From positions 19,372,903 to 19,436,902 of the forward strand of contig JARDVH010000157.1 in assembly GCA_030324005.1 (NCBI GenBank): DNA of 64,000 nt, given 5' to 3'. Below, one piece after another: positions 6,501 through 21,500 of the stretch (positions are counted from its first letter, which is position 1; every line of letters begins with the position of its first letter). Below the pieces are notes generated by a model that had not been told where the DNA came from, ran no database searches, and saw only the letters and a list, made by a program, of their open reading frames with translations. The stretch comes from Negaprion brevirostris. Taxonomy: Eukaryota. Position numbers and translations under genes: made by a program.

Positions 6501-9500
6501 AAACAGAGTTTTCTGCACCCGTTTTCAGCTCCAATGGAGGATTACCAACTGAATTGTCAAATCAGTTCTTTCAGGATTTCTCTTGGTGATTCATTTTATT
6601 CGGTGAATGGCTGACCCATACAGAACAGGGAGGTATCAGGTTTAATTACTGCTGGGCTGTTTGAGTTTACTTGGTTTATACACAAGTTTACCTGGATTAG
6701 AGAGCGTGTAATCAACGCAAATTCCTAATCCTGATCACTGTCCACTGAGTGGCCATTGCTGAATGTCAAGAAGGGACAGATCGTGATTGTCTCAGATGCT
6801 CCTGTAATGAAGCAGATTGTTAGCATTCAGTGGGACTGGCATGTGAAAGTTAACAATTTACCAGAAGGCAACCGGTGCCCAGGTTCACATTTGGAGTGGA
6901 GACCTTGCATTTCTATGAAAAGGATATTATATGTACCAGTTGCCTCTTTTTGTAGTACTAGTTACGTCCATGCTTTGACCACTATTTGTGATTCTTCATT
7001 ACTTTGGACAGTCCTATAAAAAGGGTTCCTCTAGTTCAATTGCAAATAATTGATGCAAAGATAGAGAAAGCAAGGCATGAATTGCTTCAGGAGAGGTGGG
7101 AAAAATATAGAGTGATCTACTTTGTATTTTTTAATTTTACCAAATTTTCAGTATTCCAGTTTTAATGTGACTTCAAGTGCAGCCATTGTTCTGGACAGGT
7201 CGTTCAGCTGGTGGGTATATGAGCGTTGCCATCAGACAAAGAAATAAATATTGACATTCAAGCATAGTTACAGCTCTCGTGGGATATCTGTGTGTTACTT
7301 TGGAATGGATTGAAGACATTCTCTTAGGCGCACATTTCAGGGAGTGGACTGCGGAATCTTCACTATTCCCATTGTAGAGTGGGGGGGGTGGATCTCAAAT
7401 TTAGGAATTGCTAAATTGATTTCGAGGATCCAAGCAGGGTGATTTGTTATAAATGAAAGAAGATAAATTTGAATAATAACATTTACATTAGAATTAATAG
7501 TCATTTCCAGCAAGCACGCTTGGAGCATTCAACAGTAGAGAAATGGGAAAGATGAAAACAGTCAGATTAGCAAGTAAACAGAAGGCATTTGAAAGAGGTT
7601 TGTTTGTTCCTAGACTATGATATTCTTGTGTGCCCATCAACACCCTCCCAACACCTCTTTGTATTTTAGATCCAGGACATGGTTGCAATTCGTCACACAG
7701 CCAGCAATGACCAGCAAAGAACAACCATGATACTCTTGTGTGAGGATGGCAGCCTGCGAATCTACATGGCAAATGTCGAGAACACTTCCTATTGGCTACA
7801 GCCTTCGCTGCAGCCCAGCAGTGTCATCAGCATCTTGAAACCAGTCCGCAAGCGCAAAGCTGTGGCTGCCAGTAAGGTTCAACTCATAGAAATACCCTGC
7901 TTAGGTGAAAGGAGAAAGTAATAGTGAGAAAATATGAGTGTAGTGTATTTCGCATGGGAAATGTATCCTGGCTAAATCGTTCAATCTGTTCTCGAGCATA
8001 AAGTGAGGGGGCTGGTCCACTCTTCAGGACCTTTTAAAGTAATTCTTAGGGATTGAACTTTGCTTTTTTTGTGATGTTTTTACTGTTGAGTTACCAAGTC
8101 CAGTAATGTGTGAGAACAAAATTGATAAACACGGGTGAAAAATTGGAAATGCGCCTTTAGTTAATTATTGCGTCTGTCTACTGAAGCTATTTCCATCCCC
8201 TGTGCACTGCCGTCTTCAAATCCTCTCAGTCAGTTCTCCTTGTATCACCTGAGGCAAGTAAGGCGTAAGGCATGTTAAGAATTTTTCTAATCTCATTTCA
8301 AATGGATGGTGGTGCTGGGACTTAAGCTCCCATGACATTTAGCAGCTGCTTCCTGTAATAAGTCTTTGGAGGCAGAAGTCCCTTCATCAGAATTTCTTTA
8401 TTTACAATTCCAACAGCAGTACACAGAGTGCTATCCATCAGCGGTCTATCTTCGGGAATGCCAGAAGAGCTAACACTCCCAGTTAAATACAAGAAAAAAA
8501 CACCCTGATCGGCCCATCAATAGACTACTTAATCAGGGAGTTCATATTCCAATATGACTGAAGTCATTACACTTCCTTTCCAGTCTTCTGTATTCTTGAA
8601 ATTGGCTGTTATTGCATGCTATTGAGACCTTGTAATAAAAGACAGTGTTTATTTATTAGTCACAAGTACGCTTTCATTCACACTGCAGTGAAGTTAGTGA
8701 AAATCCTCTAGTTGCTACACTCTGGTGCCTGCAATATATTTGCAATATTTTATCCCATGATGTTTCCTCTTTACACACACACTTGCAACAGTCAGACTCC
8801 CTTTCAGATGCTAACTGTCAGAAATATACTGAAGGTCAATTAGTATCTGAAAGGGAGAGTTAGCATCATGTTTGAGGTCATCTCCTTCAACTGATGGATT
8901 CTCATTAGAACCAGACAGAATTATTTCATAAAATATGCATAAAAGTACTCCCGACAACATTAATCCCTTACAGCTAAGAATGTAATTTGTTTTGATTCAG
9001 AGATGCATATTTAGATATTTATAAACAAATACCAAACAATCCTACAAATCAGGTATATTTTGAAATGCATTTGCATTACTTATGAATTTTTGGCATTACA
9101 ATTATTGTTTCAGAATCCAACAATCTTAACAGCCTCCAGTGATCTGCAATTTGAGATAATTTTTGAACTGAATGCATTAATGTAGAGCCTATGCTTGGTA
9201 GTTTGAATTCTGAACAAAAAGTCCAGATAAAAGTGAAGTTTACTTTTTCTCAGTCGGAAACATTCATCGCATGTTAGAAGGTGCTCTTAGTAGCATCCTG
9301 AATAACTGACTAACTACTGATGGGCTTCTTTTCGTACCTCTGTTCACAGCAACCCGCACATCCAGTCAGGTAACCTTTCCAATTGATTTCTTTGAACACA
9401 ACCAGCAACTGACTGATGTTGAGTTTGGGGGGAACGATTTGCTCCAAGTGTACAACATGCAACAAATTAAACATCGACTGAACTCCACGGGCATGTATGT

Positions 9501-12500
9501 TGCCAGCACCAAGGTATGAGTCCATCAGCCAGCAAAAGCACCAACTTTTTTCAAAATATATTTTGCTCATTTTTGATCTGTTGCCAACTACTTGGCAAAC
9601 CTCATCCACCCTTCCAATATTTCCATGTTGCAGGAAGCATGAAAAGTGTAGACAGTGAATACTAGAAGGCACAGCACTTTGGTGACCAGTTGGTTCATCA
9701 GGCCTACAAAAGGGCTAATTAGTTTCACTCTCCTTTTCAAGTATATAACCAGTTCCCTATTGAAAGTTGCCATTAAATTTGGGTCGCGCTCCAGAACATC
9801 ATAACCAGCTGCGTAAAACAAAACAAAAATCTCCTCATTTTGCCTGTGGCAATTTGACAGTAGTATTAAATCTGTATTGTCTGGTTCCTTGCTCTTCTGC
9901 CAGTGGAAATAATTTCTTGATACATTCTTTGAATTTTCTTTTAGCAATATTTGGATTGATTGGTAAGGGAGAAAATTTGTGTGATTATCAACTACCAACG
10001 GAATGTAATGTGCAGATGCAGGCAGGTTTACTGAGGTTTGTAACATGTTGCGTATATTTGATGATAAATTGAAATGTTAATTTTACCAAGTATAATTGCA
10101 TCTGCAATTTTATTGCAATTTTGGACCTCTTTTCTAAAGGACGTTGTTCTCTGAGCCCATATCAATTCAAAGATGGGAAATCTGAGACTTAACATCTTTT
10201 TCTTTAAAGTTTTATTTATTAGTTACAAGTAGTCTTACATTAACACTGAAATGAAGTTACTGTGAAAATCCCCTAGCCGCCACACTCCGGTACCTGTCCG
10301 GCCACACTGAAGGAGAATTTAGCATGGTCAAATCACTCACCTAACCTGTACATCTTTGGACTGTGGTAGAAAACCGGACCACCTGGAGGAAACCCGTGCA
10401 GACACAGGGAGAATGTGCAAATTCCACAAAGACAGTGATCCAAGCTGGTAATTGAATGCAGGTCCCTGGTGCTGTGAGACAGCAATGCTAACCACTGTGC
10501 CGCCAATCTATGTTTCTTGTAGAAGGTAGAAAGAGGACCCCATACAGATTTTTAAATGTTAATTAAAAATTAAGGCAATGTAGATTGAATTAAGTTAGCT
10601 CCCAAAGCACAAGAACACAAGATTTGGAAATCTTAACCAGTATGGTCTTATCAAGACTGATGATTGGGAAATACCAAATGCCAAATTCACATTCTGGACA
10701 TTTCACTGATTGCTATCAGTGATGTGAGGAGATGATGTTTAAGGTTTCTTGCTGTGTAACTGGAGCTATTATTCACTTAGCAACTTGGATTGGACATATT
10801 GCAGTTGGTAATCTGAGAATAATAATTGTAGTTGACATGTATTGCTAGACATCTGTGTCCTTGCTATATTGCTTGCTGCAACCACTTTTTAATAAAAATC
10901 TTAAAAGTGCAACAGAAATACTGGGTTCTAATACACATGATGTCAACGGCAGCAGTTGTTGAGGATGTGATGAGATGAACTAAGTTTATCACAATATGCT
11001 TACTTATTGCAGCAGTTTCAATAGCTGAGTATCCAGAAAACTAAAGGTATCCAGAAAACTAAAGGCAACCTTCTTTTCATATAAGCATTTATGCACCTAC
11101 CATTTTGGCTCAGTCCATCTACTCAACTGCCACCTCAGGCAAAGTCTAGAGGGACCAAACATACATATACTAGTCTGAAATTTCCTTCCATCAACTGACT
11201 TGAGTTGCTGAGCTTTTTAGTCACTTCTCTCACATTTTATGGTTGTTTCCTTGTCTCTTCTCCATGTCTTATCATCTCAGTTGACTCACATGGCCTTCAC
11301 AGTACATGTCTCCCAGAAGGATCTGTGCTTTGTATTCTTGCAAAACTCTACTGGCTCATCACTCAGCAAATTAATTTTAAAAGTCCTTATCCTTGGTGAT
11401 TTTTTGCCAAATATTTGTGCAAACAATTCACGACTCCATTCTCGGTTTATTCCTTGTTCCACAGCCCCTGTATCTCATCATTATGGATATCTTTCACTCA
11501 TTGTACCTCAAACTTGTCTAAACATTGCCTTCCTGTTTTCAAAAGCTTCCTAAAAACTTTTCTCCTTGTTTTTCCAATGTCTGCAGTGAAGTGGACCAGG
11601 TTCCAATGTAGAGTAGCATATAACAGTAATAAGATTCTCATTTAGTTTATTGCTGTCATTTTAAATGTGTTTGCTGTGGGTTGGTATAAGAAGAATGGTT
11701 AATCCTCGGCTTGCATATCTTCCCCATTAGATGTCAATCTGTAACAGTGGACCAGAGGAAATTTAATAATTGGGCAATAGTCAGTAGATTTGCACTTGAT
11801 TTGATCTGCTTTGGTTGGTATTCAAATTCTCTACTTGGCTCTTTACAGCCAGGTGGATTTACAGTGGAAGGTGTCAACAACAATGCCACCATGGTAATGA
11901 CAGGGATGCGGATCCAGGTTGGGACACAGGCCATTGAGAGAGCACCATCATACATTGAGATTTTTGGCCGCACAATGCAACTGAACTTGACAAGAGCTCG
12001 TTGGTTTGATTACCCATTTACCCGCGAAGAAGCATTACAGGCTGATAAGAAACTAACTATTTTTGGTAAGTGTGAACTAGCCAGGAGAAATGCATGCAAT
12101 CCCAAATTTATAGAACATGTTGTCCTGTAGGAGTATCATAGCAATTTTTTTGCACTGACCAATCATGACCCTGTTGAGACAGGCCAGGGTTATGTATTTC
12201 TGTATTAATGTCCTGTAACTGTTGCATAATTGTTTAGCTCTCTGTCCCAGTTTTCTGAACTCAGCCTTGGAGTATGCAAGAAGTGTTAGGTATCTCTGCT
12301 GTTTGGGAATAAGTACATTGCTGTTCTCCCAGTCTAGACCTCTGGCAGAGATTTCGGACCAAACCACCTTTATTTCTTATGTGCTGGTGCATCTCTTTTG
12401 TTCTATTCAAGATCTCAATGTTATGTTTTCTCTTTTTTTTTCCCCTGGTCCTTGCAGTTGGTGCTTCAGTTGATCCAGCTGGGGTCACAATGGTAGATTC

Positions 12501-15500
12501 AATAAAAATCTATGGGAAAACCAAGGAGCAGTTTGGTTGGCCTGATGAACCTCCAGAGGATTTCCCATCGGCCTCAGTAAATAACGTCGCTGTTCCAAGT
12601 GTCAGCCAGAGTAACAGCACAGGAGAGGTGGACTCAGCCACTCCAACATCCACCAGCGGCTCTGTTCTCGAGAGGTAAGCACAAGCTGGAACTGCTTGAA
12701 GTTATGTGAACTGCTTACTAACTTCCTGCTCTTCAGTTGGTGAGGAACAAATGAAGAATGAAGTGCATAAAATTGACAGCATTGTAAATTAGATTCCATT
12801 GAATAATAAATGTTAAAGTACACTCTGCCCCAAGCTTTTGACTCCTAATGGAGAAAAATTGACAAGAATGATGATACAAAACAATTGTTTACATGAGAAA
12901 TGATCTTTTGTCCCTCTTGCAACATTTGTTCTGTAACCAAAATCTGGGCGTTTTGGAGTTTCTTCTTGCTGAACCATGTGTGGCTGTTGTGTGAAAAGCT
13001 TTTCATTACAGCATGATCTCAGATTGTGTCCTGAGCTTGCCGTTTCTGCACAGGTGGATTCATATGTTTCTCATGTTCCAAAATACAGTTGAATTGGAAA
13101 GTATTTAGATGTATAAAGATAACCATTTCTTCCTACTCCTTTCATTTTTTTCCTGTGTTGTGTTTACAACCCTGGGCACGTCTGTCCTAATCTCTGCCAT
13201 GAATGCTGTTTTTGAATTCCCTGTATCCATTCTTATGTATATATTGTGGCTATTACTCCAGATCAGAGCCCTTTTTTATGTTTTGCACCATTCTCTCTAT
13301 TTTTCTCTTTACCCCTTTCAGACTTGTCTATCCTGTTTTCTTCTCCATCCTGTCATGTCACTTTACATTTGCTCCCCTAATTGATAACTTTCTCTGCTTC
13401 CCTACTCTTTTGCCTCTGCTGCAGACTTGAATGTCTTGAATAAACATTCAGCTACTCCCTATGCCTCTCTTGGCATCCTCAGAAGGGCCATTGCAGACTT
13501 TGTGCAGGCAGCAATCCCAGCTGCCTCATCCTCTTAGAACAAAGATAATTACAGCACAGGAACAGACCCTTCGGCCTTCCAAGCCTGCACCGACCATGCT
13601 GCCAAACTCAGCTCGCAACCTACTCACCCAATATGTTGGTTGGGTACTAACTTCACCCACCCCTCTTTTCTGCTTGCCTATCCAGCACAGCCCCTTGAAT
13701 TCTGTTAACACATCAACAATTACCAAAAACCATCCCTTTTGAATGTTTGCATTTGATATTATACTTTTGAAATCTATTTCTACATCCAAGCTAAATTCTG
13801 CACCCTCTCATTTCCTTCTCTATATATAGTATGCTTTATCTGTACAGCGTGCAAGAAACTATACTTTTCACTGTATACTAATACATGTGACAGTAATAAA
13901 TCAAATCAAAAATTTGGTTTAGTATTGACATCATCTTGCCTTTCACCAAANNNNNNNNNNNNNNNNNNNNNNNNNNNNNNNNNNNNNNNNNNNNNNNNNN
14001 NNNNNNNNNNNNNNNNNNNNNNNNNNNNNNNNNNNNNNNNNNNNNNNNNNNNNNNNNNNNNNNNNNNNNNNNNNNNNNNNNNNNNNNNNNNNNNNNNNNN
14101 NNNNNNNNNNNNNNNNNNNNNNNNNNNNNNNNNNNNNNNNNNNNNNNNNNNNNNNNNNNNNNNNNNNNNNNNNNNNNNNNNNNNNNNNNNNNNNNNNNNN
14201 NNNNNNNNNNNNNNNNNNNNACATAAGCTTTTCTCCTGTTTTATACTCACTTAACCTTGTGGCCTCTTCACTTGATCACTTATAAGAATACGGTCAGAAA
14301 TGTTCTCGTATTCTTCACCTTACTCCCTTTCAATCCTCAGTACCTTCTGCACCTGCTTCTGTAAAATAAACTACCCAAAATTACAAATGCACTTACAAAG
14401 TCCCAGTTGCCTAGACTTAGGATTTCCATTTGCCATAATATTTCTGCAGCTGTCAATTTGCTCAGCCATTCCCTCAACTCTATCTTCTGATGCCCTTGTG
14501 CCCAGAAAGCTGCCTCATCCTGGTCCATCCTCTGGTATGGTCCCATCTTGGCTCCCAAGAGCCGAATTTGTGCATATCTGGTGGCTAACTGCATTAGCAA
14601 TCCATCCATCGAGCTAGACCACATCATGTGCAATTAGGTCTCTTTCATCTCCACCAAAACTGCTCATAATTCCTGGATCATCTTGGACAGCAAAGACAAT
14701 TAATGCTTATTTTCTACATGATCATACATCTGTTTAAGTCCCTGCCATGTATTCCTTTTACTCTCTCCTTCACTGTCATCTCCCATTAACTATCCTTCCT
14801 CTCTAGCCTTGAATCAGCATCTTTCCTTAGTCTCTCTCCTTTCTCCCCTCTCCAAACTCATCTTGTGCATGGGACCTACTTCCTTGATCTCATCATAGTA
14901 AACTGCTAATTACCCAACTGTTCTTCCTGCTTCCAGTGTTAGCCACCATTGTAATTGGTTCCTTTTCTGCTGGTATTGTTCCCTTCAAAACTGTCAACCC
15001 CTACAAGGCAGCCACTCTCAACTTCTTTGACTTTGCAAGCTACTGCTCCGTTTTCAGCCTCCCTTTTGATTCCTTAAATGTTCTATTGCCTCTCAAATCC
15101 GTGCCAGACTTTCCACACTCGAATCTCTCAACTCTGCAGTCCACAGCAACAAAACAGACCAAATCAAATTGACAAATAATCTCTATGACTGTCTATTTTA
15201 CATTCTTGATCTGCCTACAGTCATTGACATTGCTGACAACAGCAATCTCCTTGAATACCTCTCGACCCATGTCCTTTTAGTGTCCTCTGTTCACCTCCCC
15301 GACTTAGCTTCATTTATGACTAGCTTAACATTGCCAAAAGGTCTCCTACAAAGGTTGCTCTTTGCATTTTCTCAGTGTTTGCTCCAGTGTCCTCCAAGGA
15401 ATGATCATTGATTTTATCTACATGTTACCCCATCATTATATCATCCAACTGTNNNNNNNNNNNNNNNNNNNNNNNNNNNNNNNNNNNNNNNNNNNNNNNN

Positions 15501-18500
15501 NNNNNNNNNNNNNNNNNNNNNNNNNNNNNNNNNNNNNNNNNNNNNNNNNNNNCCAACTGTATTAATGCTAACAATAGCCACCTCTATGTTTCTCAACTTC
15601 TTCACTGTTTTTCTGTTATTGGACTGCTTGCCCAAAACCCAGACAGCTACAGTTTCCTTCAACAAAACATGGTGACCCAAAACCATGTCGGTGGCAACAC
15701 CACAAATTCCATATCCTTACCATTGATTCCATCCTCCCTCCCCCGCCACTACCTCTGGTTGGACTGTTTGCAGTTGTGACATCCTATTTAAACCTGAGCT
15801 GATCATTTGATCCTCATCCAAAAAACCACCTCTGCAATGTGCTTTCATCCACACCTAGCTCAAACCCTGTTACTCAAATCCTTATCCATTTCTTTGAACT
15901 ATNNNNNNNNNNGCTGTGTGCTCTTGACGAGCCTCCTACTCTCTCCCCTCTGTAAATTTACTTTGCACCAAGACTGCTCACCAATCTCTTCTGGGCCCAC
16001 TGATCTAAGCTGGCCAATGCCTCAAAATTTTCAGCCACAAGTTTAAATCCCTGCAAGACTTTTACCTGTAATCTACTACAAACCTTCCCTTTGCATCACT
16101 GCCCCTTCAACCCCAAAATCTGCTTTGACCTGGGCCTCGTGCATCTACTCACCCTCACTTTGGCTCACTTTGACAGTTGTGCTTTCAGGCACGTAGACCT
16201 AATGCCATGGAACTCCATCCCTAAACTCTTTCATCTCTCCCCCTGTTACAATCATTCCAGAAAATCCCTCTTTTTCGTTTCACGTTATCTCATCTTTTGG
16301 AATGGAGGTTAAATTGGTGGCATAGTGGGAATATCACTAAACAAGTCATCCAGAGGTCCAGATGAATGTTCTGGGGAAAATGGGTTCAAATTCCACCACG
16401 ACAGCTGGTGGAATTTAAAAATCAATTAATAAAATCTGAAATTGAAAGCCAGTTTCAGTAATGATCATGAAACTTGATTGCTGTAAAAACCCATCTGGTT
16501 CACTAATGTCCTTTAGGGAAGGAGAGCTTCCATCCTTACCTGGTCTGGCTTACACGTGTCTCCAGGTCTACAGTAATGTACTTGTCTCTTAAATGCCCTC
16601 TGGAATGGCCTATTAAACCACTCAGTTGAAGGACTGGCGCACATCTCATGAAAGAATAGGGGGGAAAAAATGACTGATTCTAGCTCTGCCCAGCACTGTG
16701 GGTTTTTTATGTTTAAGGCACCATAGAAAGGCACTTTGTTGAATCAAGGAAAAAGATTGAGTAAACTTAAGGATAAGAGGATCTCTTACTTAAGACCCTA
16801 TGAGGTGTGTAAAATTATGCTTTTTTTTATGTTGAGCTGATGGACTTTATGGTCTTGCTCAAAGCATTGATAGCTTAACATCAATTCCAGATGTTTAAAG
16901 AAAACTGATCAATTTAAAATGGCAAGTTTTGAATTACAAATAGTGTGTTTACACTTGGAGAACAGATACAAGGAATTGGAGTTTAAGGAAAACCAGATCT
17001 TTAAATGTTGAGACAAGAGTGGAGGAAGGGAAAGTGAGGGTAATCTGACAGCTCAAGTTGTCAGTGGCAAGCACTCAGAACAAATGGATATGTTTCCTGA
17101 GTATTTTCAGCCTGTCAGGTATTGCTGTCAGTGGTTTTGAATGTTTCAGGGTTTTTCTGAATGGTAACAAGTTCTACACTAATCCTATACGCTCGGACTG
17201 GAAACCAGACGATGCTTTTTAAAACCCCAGTATTCTTCTCCATTTGAAATTGAAATCTCCCAAGGGGTTTCCCCCACAACCTGCTTATCTTGGTTGTGAA
17301 CATGTTTGTGTGCTTACTGACTCAATTTCCACAATTGCAAGCAGTGCATTGAATGGGATCATGTAGGAATAAAATCTGAGAACTGCAAGTAATCCATCTC
17401 CACCAGGCTTGCCATCCTTCTGAGAGGATTCTGTGCTGATGGCCAAATGTTCACAGCAATCTCATTGCATGACCCATCACATCCTCTGTGTGCAGGTTCT
17501 GCATGCCTGGCTGCTCGTCTTCTCTTTCAGTTTCTTTTTCTAAAGTGGTAAAAGGATTGTGTTTACTTTATTTAAAGTTCTCACGTGGTTTTCTTTTCTG
17601 TTGTTCCCTGAAAGTTGTGAGGCTGAATCCCTAAGCTCCTTAGACCGGTTAGTATCCCGCCTTTCTCTTTATCCTATTCTCTCTTATGTTTGTGTCTGTG
17701 TTTGTGGCATCTCAGTATTTAAAACAACAGTAACCACGCATAATATTGTCATTTGAACTGAAGACTCTTCAAAATAATACTGAACCCAGGAAATATGTTT
17801 AAATCCATGAAATCATCTTAAGTCATATCAGACATCTTGTATGGATAGACCTCAAATTTCCCATCAATGTGGAACTATGAATAACTTACTGGGCAATTGA
17901 ACTCTGCAACAATATCTCCAGATTGCATGTATTTGTTTTTTAAAGCTGTCAGTATTTTGGTTCTTTTATCTCTTGAGAGGTTATATTGGCAAGTGCTTTT
18001 AGAGTAAATTAAGTTGGTGAGCTTTATTCATCAACAGCAACTTGTATTTATGTAGCACCTTTAACATGGTGAAATGTCCCATGGTGCTTCACAGGACGGT
18101 GGTCAAACAAAATTTGACATTAAGCAGGCATTGAGCAGATGACCAAAAACCTGACCAAACAGGTTGGTCTTAGCAGATACCTTAAAGGAAGAGAGAGACA
18201 TAACGAGCTGGGAAGGTTAGAGAGGGAATTCCATAGTTTTGGGCCTTGGAAGATGGAAGACCCCAATGGTGGAGCAATTAAAATTGGATCTGCATAAAAG
18301 GCCAGAATTGGAGATGTGCAGATAAAGTTTTGTTTTTGATGTGAATGGTTTGAATATGAGTTCAGAAGTGAAATCTTCATAATTTTGCACAGTGCCAGAA
18401 TAAATGGAAGAGCATGTAATGAGAGAGAAGTCTATCAGATTCAGAAGGATTTTGACATTACAGTTAAATTAGTAACATGGGAGAGGACTTTAAATGTGGA

Positions 18501-21500
18501 TAAGAATAAAATGAGAACAAGGATCCAAAGGGGGAAATGCTAAATGGAAGAGTGGAGCAGTGAGCTGATACAATTACAGTGACTCACTATATTAAACCAT
18601 CAGTATAGTCATTTGTTGCAGGACTAGAGGGATTTTGTAGAGGGATATTGATGTATATGGCATTAATTAGACTCCCATCTGAAATACTTGTGTTACCTGA
18701 TCATCAGAATGCTTGTGTTGCCCTTTCAGCGATCAGGGATGAATAACAAAGCTTATGTCCAGTTGATCTTGTTGAGATTTTGAAGATTGTGACTAGAACT
18801 GAATAATGTGGTACAGGGTCAGCATGGAAAACCTTCAGTATGATAAAGGATTCAAGTACTATTTGAAGAAGTAATATCAATGGGTTTAGGAACTTAGAAG
18901 GAATTGAATGATATAGCAACAACGTGAATTGTTGGACTTGATCTTTTGGGCATGGATTTATTATAATTTTTGCTTTTGACTTTCGTCCATCCATATCCCA
19001 ATGTTGTCTGCTGGATTTCAAGTTTATAAAGCTTTGTCTGTAATCCTTCAGAACTGTTTCCATTCACTCAAAATCCATTTGCCTCCCTCCTTTGTCACTG
19101 TTGCAATTTTGATTTACATTGGAAGTCATTGTCTGAAGCTCTGAATTATCCCTCTCGGCTTAAGTTGTATAATGTTATAATAATCACATTCATTTAACTT
19201 TTCTAAGTATTAATTTGTACTATTAATGTTCTTGTATACAGTTACGATCCTTTGTTCAAAAACAAAACTATTTATGATGTGTGCTTCACCTGCAAGGCTG
19301 CCTTTATTTTCCCTGAGTTGAGTTTGAACTCAACAAAAATTTTAATCTGAAATGGCTTTTTAAATATGCTGTTAAGAAATGGTGCGCAGGCCCTTAGTTA
19401 TAAGAAGTAAATTAACCATTTGAGCCTTGGAGGAAAATATTGGTAATTCTGGTCTTAAGTACTGAACGTGTTCCAATTTTGGAGACATTCTTTCCATCTT
19501 CTGTGAGAGCAACCAAAGAATAGAATTATCCTAGAAATATTACTTGTTGGTTTAGGAAGTATCAAAGCCCTTTTATCAGTAAGAAACTCTCCTCCCTCTA
19601 CCATTAATGAGTTCAGCAATTGAAAATCATGTTTCTCTTTGTCTTTAGGCTGGTGGTGAGCTCAATGGAAGTGCTGGAAAGCTGCTTTGCTGTTGGATCC
19701 TCAACTGAAAAGGTAACCTTATTTGCCTTTGTGATATGGGGGAAGGGAGAGAAAGGGTTTGCGCTCTTTACTTGCTTAGTAATTAGTGAGGAAGGGCTGT
19801 TTGCTAGAAATTTCTTTTGATTTCTCATTTTCCAAATGTTCTATTTGAGGATATGTAGAGAACGAGTTACTCAGTGTAAAATCTGAGAACATATAAATTT
19901 ACCTTTTAAATGTTTACTGACTATATCTGTCCTCTCACAGGAAAAGAATAAACAGACAGCATTGGAACTGGCCACCACATTGCTGTCAATGCCAACTCCA
20001 TCCACTGTTCAGCAGCAAACAAAGGGGCTGCTGGCGAGTCTGCACAGTAGCCGTGGCAGTTATCACAATCACAAGGTAACGTGTGCTGATTAACTGCTTT
20101 TCACACACTTATGTGGAACCAATCTGTGTTAACACTAGTGGCGTCTGCAAGGCTATGTATTTATTATGGGGCTGAGAAGTGGAAACTTCACTGCTACAGT
20201 TTCACTGGTTTTGAAGAGCACAAGCCAGATAGTGACTGAGCTACAATGTTTAATGCATTTACAGCATGCTCGGAGCAGTACCAGGCGCACTGGGCTGGTC
20301 AGAAGCTGACTTACTTTCAGATTGTTGATGGAATCAGCTAAGCTTTCATGCCAAAATCTGTTCTGGCTTTCCCATTTGATTCTTCAACTCAGCAAGAAAA
20401 TATATGCCATCATGTATAAGAGAAGATGCTGCAACAAGAGATACTTTGTTCTGCAAGTACTCTGGTGCTGTTTATAATACCAGAAAAGGATTGTGTGAAA
20501 GTGTAGCAGGCATTCAACTGGTTTGTAATGTACGAGTCACATAATTATACTATCCTCAGCAAGATGTGCTCAAATAGTTCTCTTTGTCTGATCAGGATCA
20601 AGCTCTGCTGAATAATGCTGTGCAGATTCTGAATACTTGGAACAAGGATGGTCGTGACCTTGATCCAGAAGTATTCCAGCGGCTGATAATCACAGCACGT
20701 TCCATTGCAATGATGCGACCCAATAACCTCGTGCACTTCACAGAGGTGAAAGCACCACAAACGGATAAAGGTGAGCAAATTCAGAAAATACTGGAAGTAT
20801 CCCAACAGCCTGTTGTATCAATAAAGAGAATGGATGAACATAGAACAGTACAGCACAGTACAGGCCCTTCGGCCCTCAATGTTGTGCTGAGCTATGTCCA
20901 AACCCAAGATCAAGCTATCCACTCCCTATCATTCTGGTGTGCTCCATGTACCTATCCAATAACCACTTGAAAGTTCCTAAAGACTCCGCTATCACTGCAG
21001 GCAGTACATTCCACGCCCCAATCACTGAGTAAAGAATCTAACTCGGACATCTTTCCTGTGTCTCCCACCATGAACCTTGTAGTTATGCCACCTAGTAACA
21101 GCTACATCCACCTGAAAAAATAGTCTCTGCATGTCCACTCTATCAATCCCTCTCATCATCTTATAAACCTTTATTAAGTTGCCTCTCATCCTCCTCCACT
21201 CTACAGAGAAAAGCCCCAGCTCCCTTAACCTTTCCTCATAAGACCTACCCTCCAAACCAGGCAGCATCTTGGTAAATCTCCTCTGTACGCTCTCCAGTGC
21301 TTCCACGTATTCCTTATAGTGAGGTGACCAGAACAGCACACAGTATTCTAAATGTGGTCTCACCAAGGTCCGGTATAGTTGCAGCATAACCCACAGCTCT
21401 TCAGCTCAAACCCCCTGTTCATAAGTGCTATAAGCCTTCTTCATGGCTCTATCCACTTGGGTGGCAACCTTCAGAGATCTGTGGATATGAACCCCAAGAT

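What the first reader, a model, noticed from the sequence alone, without database searches (positions are those of the whole stretch)
17615..17647. Hidden 33-nt in-frame microexon in a 7-kb UBR4 intron, possibly conserved from shark to mammals
Seen: a pyrimidine-rich acceptor ending aag, 33 nt with no stop, and a donor CG|gttagt. Phase 2-2 matches the host intron (12675-19648), so inclusion gives ...[21 protein letters not shown]. From memory, predicted mammalian UBR4 isoforms carry VLE-SSETESLTKLD-RLVVSS at this same junction, while the canonical protein lacks it. Inference: a regulated cassette exon retained since the jawed-vertebrate ancestor, inserting a Ser/acidic peptide in a linker of the ligase. 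Gene predictors often miss exons this small.
Basis: partly seen in the sequence, partly recalled or inferred. Interest (0 to 1): 0.72.

Follow-up and report, generated by a model that had tools for sequence, protein, structure and literature searches.

The report
UBR4 optional mini-exon, likely invented twice
A 33-base optional exon in the gene for the giant protein-disposal enzyme UBR4 is present here and in database gene models from sharks to apes; it is predicted to lengthen a flexible tether by 11 amino acids, and ants and wasps carry an unrelated optional insert at the same spot, likely evolved separately.

Summary
Confirmed. 17615-17647 is a 33-nt AG/GT, phase 2-2, frame-keeping exon of shark UBR4. 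It is not hidden: 56 of 136 jawed-vertebrate UBR4 proteins examined carry the 11-residue insert, 69 skip it; models from 10 shark and ray species include it. Six of 8 related-shark RNA contig sets bridge the junction; all skip, none shows inclusion. A Parkinson preprint measured the orthologous human event (primers flank this junction) but calls it a stop-codon exon, which the primate protein models contradict. AlphaFold places it at the end of the disordered tether between the KCMF1-binding DOC1 domain and the helical scaffold: inclusion adds 11 residues and swaps the helix cap. Two observations go further. The exon, not the canonical junction, carries the ancestral cap (18 of 18 outgroups). 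Hymenopteran UBR4 has an unrelated optional 8-11-residue insert at the same codon, both forms in 6 of 17 species. Function and tissue pattern are untested. The scan found this exon before on another genome (e1-9529749). Interest 0.5.

The parts
12458..12674 (+).
   Evidence: equals human 2406-2476; spliced in RNA contigs
12675..19648 (+). Host phase-2 intron (6974 nt, GT..AG), removed whole in the skipped form
   Evidence: joint 12672-19647 (cut +2) in 6 of 8 laid runs
17466..17471 (+). TGCATG (RBFOX-type motif, recalled assignment), 149 nt upstream of the exon
   Evidence: function untested
17500..17505 (+). TGCATG, 115 nt upstream of the exon
   Evidence: function untested
17576..17614 (+). 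3' splice-site region: an upstream AG (17576-17577), candidate branch point CTCAC (17580-17584), pyrimidine tract, acceptor AG (17613-17614). 17579-17608 translates to the same 10 residues that a bamboo-shark model adds through the upstream AG
   Evidence: (P0144); branch point is by recalled consensus only
17615..17647 (+). 33-nt phase 2-2 cassette exon; 17616-17645 reads [10 protein letters not shown]; last five residues form the predicted cap and first turn of the next helix
17648..17653 (+). Donor GTTAGT, followed by a CU-rich and UG-rich stretch
17924..17929 (+). TGCATG, 277 nt downstream of the exon
   Evidence: function untested
19649..19712 (+). Downstream UBR4 exon (64 nt): first helix of the scaffold segment after DOC1

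Best explanation
This is a 33-nt in-frame optional exon of UBR4, shared by jawed vertebrates, whose inclusion is predicted to lengthen by 11 residues the disordered tether between the KCMF1-binding DOC1 domain and the helical scaffold, which would likely retune the reach of the mobile substrate-binding module without changing the scaffold. Shown: the exon, its frame, its orthologues in protein databases, the skipped splice in shark RNA contigs. Predicted: both forms start the same helix through a Ser/Thr-x-x-Glu/Asp cap; on inclusion the exon supplies the cap and the old cap melts into the tether. Inferred from alignment: the exon holds the ancestral cap, so the skipped 'canonical' junction is the derived one; Hymenoptera gained a mirror-image optional insert at the same codon. 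Inferred and weaker: skipping is the default and inclusion is high in neural cells, set by RBFOX-type rather than SRRM4-type elements. Untested: any effect on substrate choice or stress-response silencing.
For: Orthology: 56 of 136 gnathostome proteins carry the 11-residue insert, with L7 and D11 in 56 of 56 and E5 in 55 of 56; 12 of 18 chondrichthyan proteins, from 10 species, include it. Both forms occur in one species in Mobula birostris, gar, bichir, Paramormyrops, junco and Ascaphus. Skipped splice in 6 of 8 laid runs. [quoted passage not shown] Structure: helix starts at residue 190 (skipped) or 201 (included), and the pLDDT<50 stretch grows from 151-187 to 151-196; the preceding beta-sandwich matches APC10/DOC1 and UBR4 cryo-EM chains. 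The KCMF1-DOC1-UBR module is flexibly attached and shifts on substrate binding (PMC12286842); the KCMF1-binding deletion 2333-2498 spans this junction (PMC10881396). Ancestral cap: 18 of 18 outgroups are closer to the exon's last five residues than to the upstream exon's (mean BLOSUM 13.8 vs 2.4); 17 of 22 further placed invertebrates too, the 5 exceptions being the hymenopteran long forms. Hymenoptera: 25 long and 17 short forms among 42 proteins of 17 species, both in 6 species; insert unrelated to the vertebrate exon (shuffle p 0.23). TGCATG: 3 within 300 nt, against at most 1 around each of 40 other exon hits, Poisson p 0.002 before correcting for 8 motifs tried.
Against: No contig that bridges the junction includes the exon (0 of 6; contigs drop minor forms, tissue unknown, species related rather than the same). 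Inclusion in sharks rests on RefSeq models whose read support I could not see. The Parkinson preprint says the human exon holds a premature stop. The tether is already about 37-45 residues and disordered, and its length ranges 39-55 among invertebrates, so 11 more may change little. The AlphaFold models have pTM 0.42-0.44 and do not place DOC1 against the scaffold. Only skipped forms were listed for marsupials (6 of 6 proteins, 2 species), coelacanth (3 of 3) and Callorhinchus (3 of 3); loss or missed annotation cannot be told apart. Upstream RBFOX sites usually repress (recalled), so the direction of control is unclear. Intron positions outside this shark were not seen; the insect event is inferred from proteins alone.
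Confidence: 0.6

Rival explanations
1. The exon matters through its own sequence, not tether length: the restored Leu-Ser/Thr-x-Leu-Asp cap packs on the scaffold and stabilises the helix, or the Ser/Thr/acidic stretch is a phosphorylation or binding site.
For: L7 and D11 are invariant in 56 of 56 inserts and E5 in 55 of 56; the same cap is kept from coral to hagfish. The Leu before the cap is replaced by Gly in the skipped form (55 of 56).
Against: Both forms are predicted to start the helix equally well. The insect insert has the opposite arrangement (it displaces the ancestral cap) and unrelated sequence but near-equal length, which points to length. No phosphosite data were seen.
Confidence: 0.22
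2. The exon is real and conserved but nearly neutral: an old phase-2 intron at a tolerant loop-helix boundary where both forms work alike and short in-frame inserts arise easily.
For: Tether length varies 39-55 residues among invertebrates; only the skipped form was seen in 6 bridging contigs; no inclusion form listed for marsupials, coelacanth or Callorhinchus; independent inserts at one tolerant site need no shared function.
Against: Exact 11-residue length in all 56 inserts counted across jawed vertebrates; the 3' splice-site region encodes the same 10 residues in two shark orders; clustering of TGCATG; large PSI shifts in human neural cells.
Confidence: 0.13
3. It is a poison exon that lowers UBR4 by nonsense-mediated decay, as the Parkinson preprint states for the human event.
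For: Statement in 10.1101/2024.02.28.582420. In this shark, use of the upstream AG would give a 70-nt exon with TGA at 17609-17611, so a minor stop-bearing variant is possible.
Against: Primate, rodent and other mammalian models read through the insert to full length (lemur XP_045404520.1, 5186 aa); the exon is open in phase 2 and shows a stop only if read from its first base, a likely source of the claim (inference; human DNA not seen). The ALS preprint ties the exon to a UniProt protein entry.
Confidence: 0.05

Closest known systems
Human UBR4 'exon 50 of 108' microexon, chr1:19148626-19150575 (bioRxiv 10.1101/2024.02.28.582420; earlier version PMC12424998)
   Same: Same intron: the RT-PCR primers map to residues 56 and 107 of human fragment P0018, around the junction at 91/92. 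Cassette exon, included in neural-lineage cells, skipped more in Parkinson mutant lines.
   Different: The preprint calls it stop-bearing; database proteins and this shark exon are in frame. In the passages read it gives no conservation or structural reading.
[quoted passage not shown]
   Same: Likely the same human exon (by numbering); inclusion rises from day 10 to 30 in TDP-43 M337V spinal motor neurons.
   Different: No length, frame, evolution or function given in the passages read.
RefSeq/GenBank UBR4 isoform models of sharks, rays, fish and tetrapods (e.g. XP_072334305.1, XP_072101555.1, PNJ27160.1)
   Same: Same 11-residue insert at the same junction.
   Different: This shark has Ala at insert position 4, where 0 of 56 database inserts do. 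The models are automatic annotation without study.
SRRM3/4 (eMIC)-dependent neural microexons, e.g. the DAAM1 linker-extending microexon (PMC12056172, listing abstract only)
   Same: Short, frame-keeping, conserved in vertebrates, extends a linker, probably neural-enriched.
   Different: 33 nt exceeds the 3-27 nt definition (abstracts); no UGC within 100 nt of the acceptor; not found in the zebrafish conserved-microexon supplements.
Same-position fly/mouse alternative exons in spg, EndoB, unc-13 and unc-104 (PMC8797185)
   Same: Short alternative exons at equivalent positions in insects and vertebrates, read as mostly convergent.
   Different: poe/UBR4 is not in that paper's text or its one held supplement; here the insect lineage is Hymenoptera, eMIC dependence is unknown, and the two inserts sit on opposite sides of the ancestral cap.

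Membership tests
Conserved frame-preserving cassette exon | Canonical AG/GT ends, length 3n, matching phase, no stop | tested here: met
Conserved frame-preserving cassette exon | Orthologous segment at the same junction in distant species | tested here: met
   56 of 136 gnathostome proteins; sharks to primates
Conserved frame-preserving cassette exon | Skipped form exists as RNA | tested here: met
   6 of 8 laid contig sets from related sharks join 12674 to 19649
Conserved frame-preserving cassette exon | Included form exists as RNA in this lineage | tested here: inconclusive
   0 of 6 bridging contigs include it, but contigs drop minor forms; RefSeq models of 10 shark and ray species include it; human RT-PCR reported
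SRRM3/4 (eMIC)-dependent neural microexon | Length 3-27 nt | tested here: not met
   33 nt; definition from abstracts
SRRM3/4 (eMIC)-dependent neural microexon | UGC motif close upstream of the 3' splice site (recalled feature) | tested here: not met
   nearest UGC is 103 nt upstream
SRRM3/4 (eMIC)-dependent neural microexon | Neural-specific inclusion that depends on SRRM3/4 | not testable with these tools
   no ubr4 row in 12 supplement files of PMC12626424; only an unrelated Alt5 event in 12 of 19 files of PMC7935315
RBFOX-regulated exon | TGCATG enriched near the exon | tested here: met
   3 within 300 nt; at most 1 around each of 40 other exon hits; p 0.002 uncorrected for 8 motifs
RBFOX-regulated exon | Motifs conserved across species and inclusion changes on RBFOX loss | not testable with these tools
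   no other vertebrate genome DNA available for this stretch
Poison (NMD) exon | In-frame stop or frameshift on inclusion | tested here: not met
   open frame here and full-length proteins with the insert; human DNA itself not seen
Convergent same-position alternative exons (insect vs vertebrate) | Alternative inserts at the same codon in both lineages | tested here: met
   alignment; both forms in 6 of 17 hymenopteran species
Convergent same-position alternative exons (insect vs vertebrate) | No sequence homology, and absent from intervening lineages | tested here: inconclusive
   shuffle p 0.23; one form only in 8 of 8 Lycorma, 9 of 9 cockroach/termite and 7 of 7 Acropora proteins; sampling thin, no amphioxus, lamprey, tunicate or fly rows
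Convergent same-position alternative exons (insect vs vertebrate) | The insect insert is a separate cassette exon at an orthologous intron | not testable with these tools
   no insect genomic DNA; an alternative acceptor would give the same proteins

The most novel reading that the evidence does not exclude
The tether between UBR4's DOC1/KCMF1 module and its scaffold is a splicing-controlled length dial invented twice with mirror-image design: jawed vertebrates moved the ancestral helix cap onto an optional 33-nt exon and built a spare cap upstream, while ants, wasps and sawflies kept the cap and added an optional 8-11-residue piece with a spare cap downstream. Neurons would run a long-tether UBR4/SIFI complex that differs from the short form of the solved human structures, and the skipping seen in Parkinson lines would change substrate handling rather than UBR4 amount.
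Probability: 0.3. Interest if true: 0.72.

Novelty: new member of a known kind. Interest (0 to 1): 0.5.

Why it matters
UBR4 is the core of the SIFI ligase that silences the mitochondrial stress response, and its mutations cause ataxia and early dementia (PMC12286842). The human chains in the PDB are 4781-5205 residues with this junction at the canonical position, and the structure papers I searched do not mention isoforms or splicing. A preprint reports that control midbrain-lineage cells mostly include an exon at this junction and Parkinson lines skip it, and reads this as a stop-codon switch. If the exon is in frame, as the cross-species data indicate, that disease observation means a change of protein form next to the KCMF1-binding domain, and can be tested with one 11-residue insertion. 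The likely parallel insert in Hymenoptera would add a case to a short list of same-position convergent alternative exons and suggests that the length of this tether is under selection.

Tried and rejected
Sequencing runs: no RNA holder listed on record (18 runs, 12 guessed RNA, shares 0.06-0.10). I laid 8 of those 12; X7 and X11 do not bridge the junction; no record lay on 17615-17647 in any of the 8, which contigs cannot turn into absence. Origin by tandem duplication of the upstream exon's end: only borderline (column-shuffle p 0.046), not adopted. Homology of insect and vertebrate inserts: not supported (p 0.23). SRRM4, QKI, NOVA, MBNL, PTB and CELF motif counts showed nothing as clear as TGCATG. 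No tandem, direct or inverted repeat of 25 nt or more in 11700-21000. One copy of the exon region in the genome. A search from the hagfish protein listed no lamprey, amphioxus or tunicate UBR4 among the best 120 of 157 hits. Literature: searches gave no paper on the conservation, structure or insect parallel of this exon; hits PMC5538435, PMC7397853 and PMC6429586 name UBR4 only in a reference; PMC12397408 concerns other isoforms; PMC4390143 is not held; no ubr4 in the one held supplement of PMC12868881. VastDB could not be consulted and may well list the event. Earlier-finding look-ups by place and for the insect angle returned nothing.

Full report
Observation. The window holds part of a shark UBR4 gene; about 40 exon hits are found with close relatives. 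The exon 12458-12674 equals human residues 2406-2476 and ends two bases into an Arg codon; the next constitutive exon starts at 19649. Inside this 6974-nt intron, 17615-17647 has a pyrimidine tract, acceptor AG, 33 nt and donor CCG|GTTAGT. Inclusion keeps the frame and adds 11 residues; only this phase is open. Of 168 open in-frame AG..GT segments of 9-51 nt in the intron, 6 pass a crude splice-site filter and this one ranks first. The region is single-copy in the genome.

Conservation. Of 136 jawed-vertebrate proteins gathered carry an 11-residue insert at this junction and 69 skip it. The other 11 are: 6 without the anchor motif (one is not UBR4), 3 aberrant models, and 2 with a variant insert. 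Insert positions L7 and D11 are invariant in 56 of 56. Among 18 chondrichthyan proteins 12 include it, from 10 shark and ray species; only skipped forms were listed for Mustelus, Hemiscyllium and Callorhinchus. Both forms occur within Mobula birostris, gar, bichir, Paramormyrops, junco and Ascaphus, though some skipped models may simply have missed the exon. Marsupial (6 of 6) and coelacanth (3 of 3) proteins listed lack it. So the exon dates to the jawed-vertebrate ancestor and is already in automatic annotation. A bamboo-shark model extends the exon through an upstream AG, and its 10 extra residues equal the translation of window 17579-17608: the 3' splice-site region is conserved between shark orders. 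In this genome that extension is one base longer and would meet TGA at 17609-17611.

RNA. One search listed 18 runs, 12 of them guessed RNA; I laid 8 of the 12. Six have a contig that joins 12674 to 19649 with GT..AG ends, from four coded organisms and four studies; record coordinates leave exactly the 64 nt of the downstream exon, so all six skip. The contigs differ from the window at up to 7 bases per exon, so they come from related sharks; tissues are unknown and contigs drop minor forms. The skipped form is thus shown; inclusion in sharks rests on RefSeq models.

Human data in print. bioRxiv 10.1101/2024.02.28.582420 (passages and section 13 read; supplements closed) reports a UBR4 'microexon (exon 50 of 108)' at chr1:19148626-19150575, mostly included in control midbrain-lineage cells and skipped more in Parkinson mutant lines, and says it contains a premature stop. 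The primers in the supplement of its earlier version (PMC12424998, rows read) translate to residues on either side of our junction, so it is the orthologous intron; delta-PSI was -0.35 in a GBA1 line. The stop claim conflicts with full-length mammalian models that carry the insert. [quoted passage not shown] Together these suggest neural-enriched inclusion (about 0.6, inferred).

Regulation. There is no UGC within 100 nt of the acceptor and the exon is longer than 27 nt, so it fails two SRRM3/4-microexon features. Three of the four TGCATG in the intron lie within 300 nt of the exon (-149, -115, +277); none of 40 other exon hits has more than one (p 0.002 before correcting for 8 motifs). RBFOX control is a lead, not a result.

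Structure. Two AlphaFold2 models of 345-residue fragments from close shark proteins, each with a 31-row alignment, give a beta-sandwich, a disordered tether and a helical segment (mean pLDDT 70-71, pTM 0.42-0.44). Foldseek matches UBR4 cryo-EM chains and APC10/DOC1. In the skipped form the helix starts at residue 190, after Ser189; in the included form at 201, after Ser200 inside the exon. Both starts fit the Ser/Thr-x-x-Glu/Asp capping box (recalled motif), and the old cap joins the low-confidence tether. In PMC12286842 (passages) DOC1, the UBR box and the KCMF1 N-terminus form a flexibly attached module that shifts on substrate binding; 10.1101/2024.12.18.629163 (passages) describes the same appendage; the KCMF1-binding deletion 2333-2498 of PMC10881396 (passages) spans our junction. 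I commit to tether length as the most likely mechanism; its functional effect is untested.

Which form is ancestral. In 18 of 18 non-gnathostome proteins (hagfish, starfish, ribbon worm, molluscs, insects; two same-species duplicates dropped) the five residues before the helix are closer to the exon's end than to the upstream exon's end (mean BLOSUM 13.8 vs 2.4). Of 25 more invertebrates, 22 could be placed and 17 agree, coral included. Tether length in outgroups (median 45) is nearer the skipped form (47) than the included one (58). So vertebrates kept the old cap on the optional exon and evolved a second cap upstream. A duplication origin is only borderline (p 0.046).

The insect parallel. 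The 5 exceptions were all Hymenoptera. Among 42 hymenopteran proteins from 17 species, 25 have an extra 8-11 residues and 17 do not; six species have both (Neodiprion fabricii, Fopius, Diachasmimorpha, Odontomachus, Nasonia, Pseudomyrmex). The insert falls at the same Lys/Arg codon as the vertebrate intron, comes after the ancestral cap rather than containing it, and is unrelated in sequence to the vertebrate exon (p 0.23). Lycorma (8 of 8), cockroach and termites (9 of 9) and Acropora (7 of 7) show one form. These are automatic models, no insect DNA was seen, and an alternative acceptor would give the same proteins. Same-position exons in insects and vertebrates are known but rare: four cases in PMC8797185, which does not mention poe or UBR4 (passages and one supplement). 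My searches found no report of this parallel; VastDB and closed supplements may hold more.

Verdict. As a conserved cassette exon it is ordinary and the scan met it before on another genome. What lifts it is the conflict with a published stop-codon reading, the ancestral-cap polarity and the likely independent insert in Hymenoptera. Confidence: real conserved exon about 0.97; alternative use about 0.93; tether mechanism as stated 0.6. Novelty: new member of a known kind. Interest 0.5.

Noticed in passing
P0195, P0208/P0214, P0192/P0218, P0222/P0224, P0230/P0231, P0243/P0197, P0252/P0139 (hymenopteran UBR4/poe): Optional 8-11-residue insert at the same codon as the vertebrate exon, unrelated in sequence, both forms in 6 of 17 species.
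   Followed up: partly
window 17576-17614: An upstream AG used in a Chiloscyllium plagiosum model (P0144) extends the exon by 36 nt in frame; here the extension is 37 nt and meets TGA at 17609-17611, a possible minor stop-bearing variant.
   Followed up: partly
window 7872-7904: A second 33-nt in-frame option: a downstream alternative donor (GT at 7905) adds 11 residues just before the DOC1 domain in the Mustelus X5 model; 10 other proteins shown lack it and 2 had no anchor. It would lengthen the linker on the other side of DOC1.
   Followed up: partly
P0063, P0064, P0066-P0068, P0072 (marsupials); P0081, P0159, P0160 (coelacanth); P0101, P0156, P0157 (Callorhinchus): Only skipped forms listed, including Vombatus isoforms X1-X4; possible lineage loss or missed annotation.
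   Followed up: no
window 17622-17624: Insert position 4 is Ala here; 0 of 56 database inserts have Ala (45 Thr, 8 Pro, 3 Ser). Lineage change or assembly error.
   Followed up: no
window about 13536-13910 and 16380-16630: High-copy repeats inside the host intron, hit by thousands of RNA contigs of related sharks; probably retroelement fragments.
   Followed up: no
P0161 in the cluster of P0047: An EMC1 protein clusters with mammalian UBR4, probably through a fused gene model of the neighbouring genes; it was left out of the counts as having no anchor.
   Followed up: no
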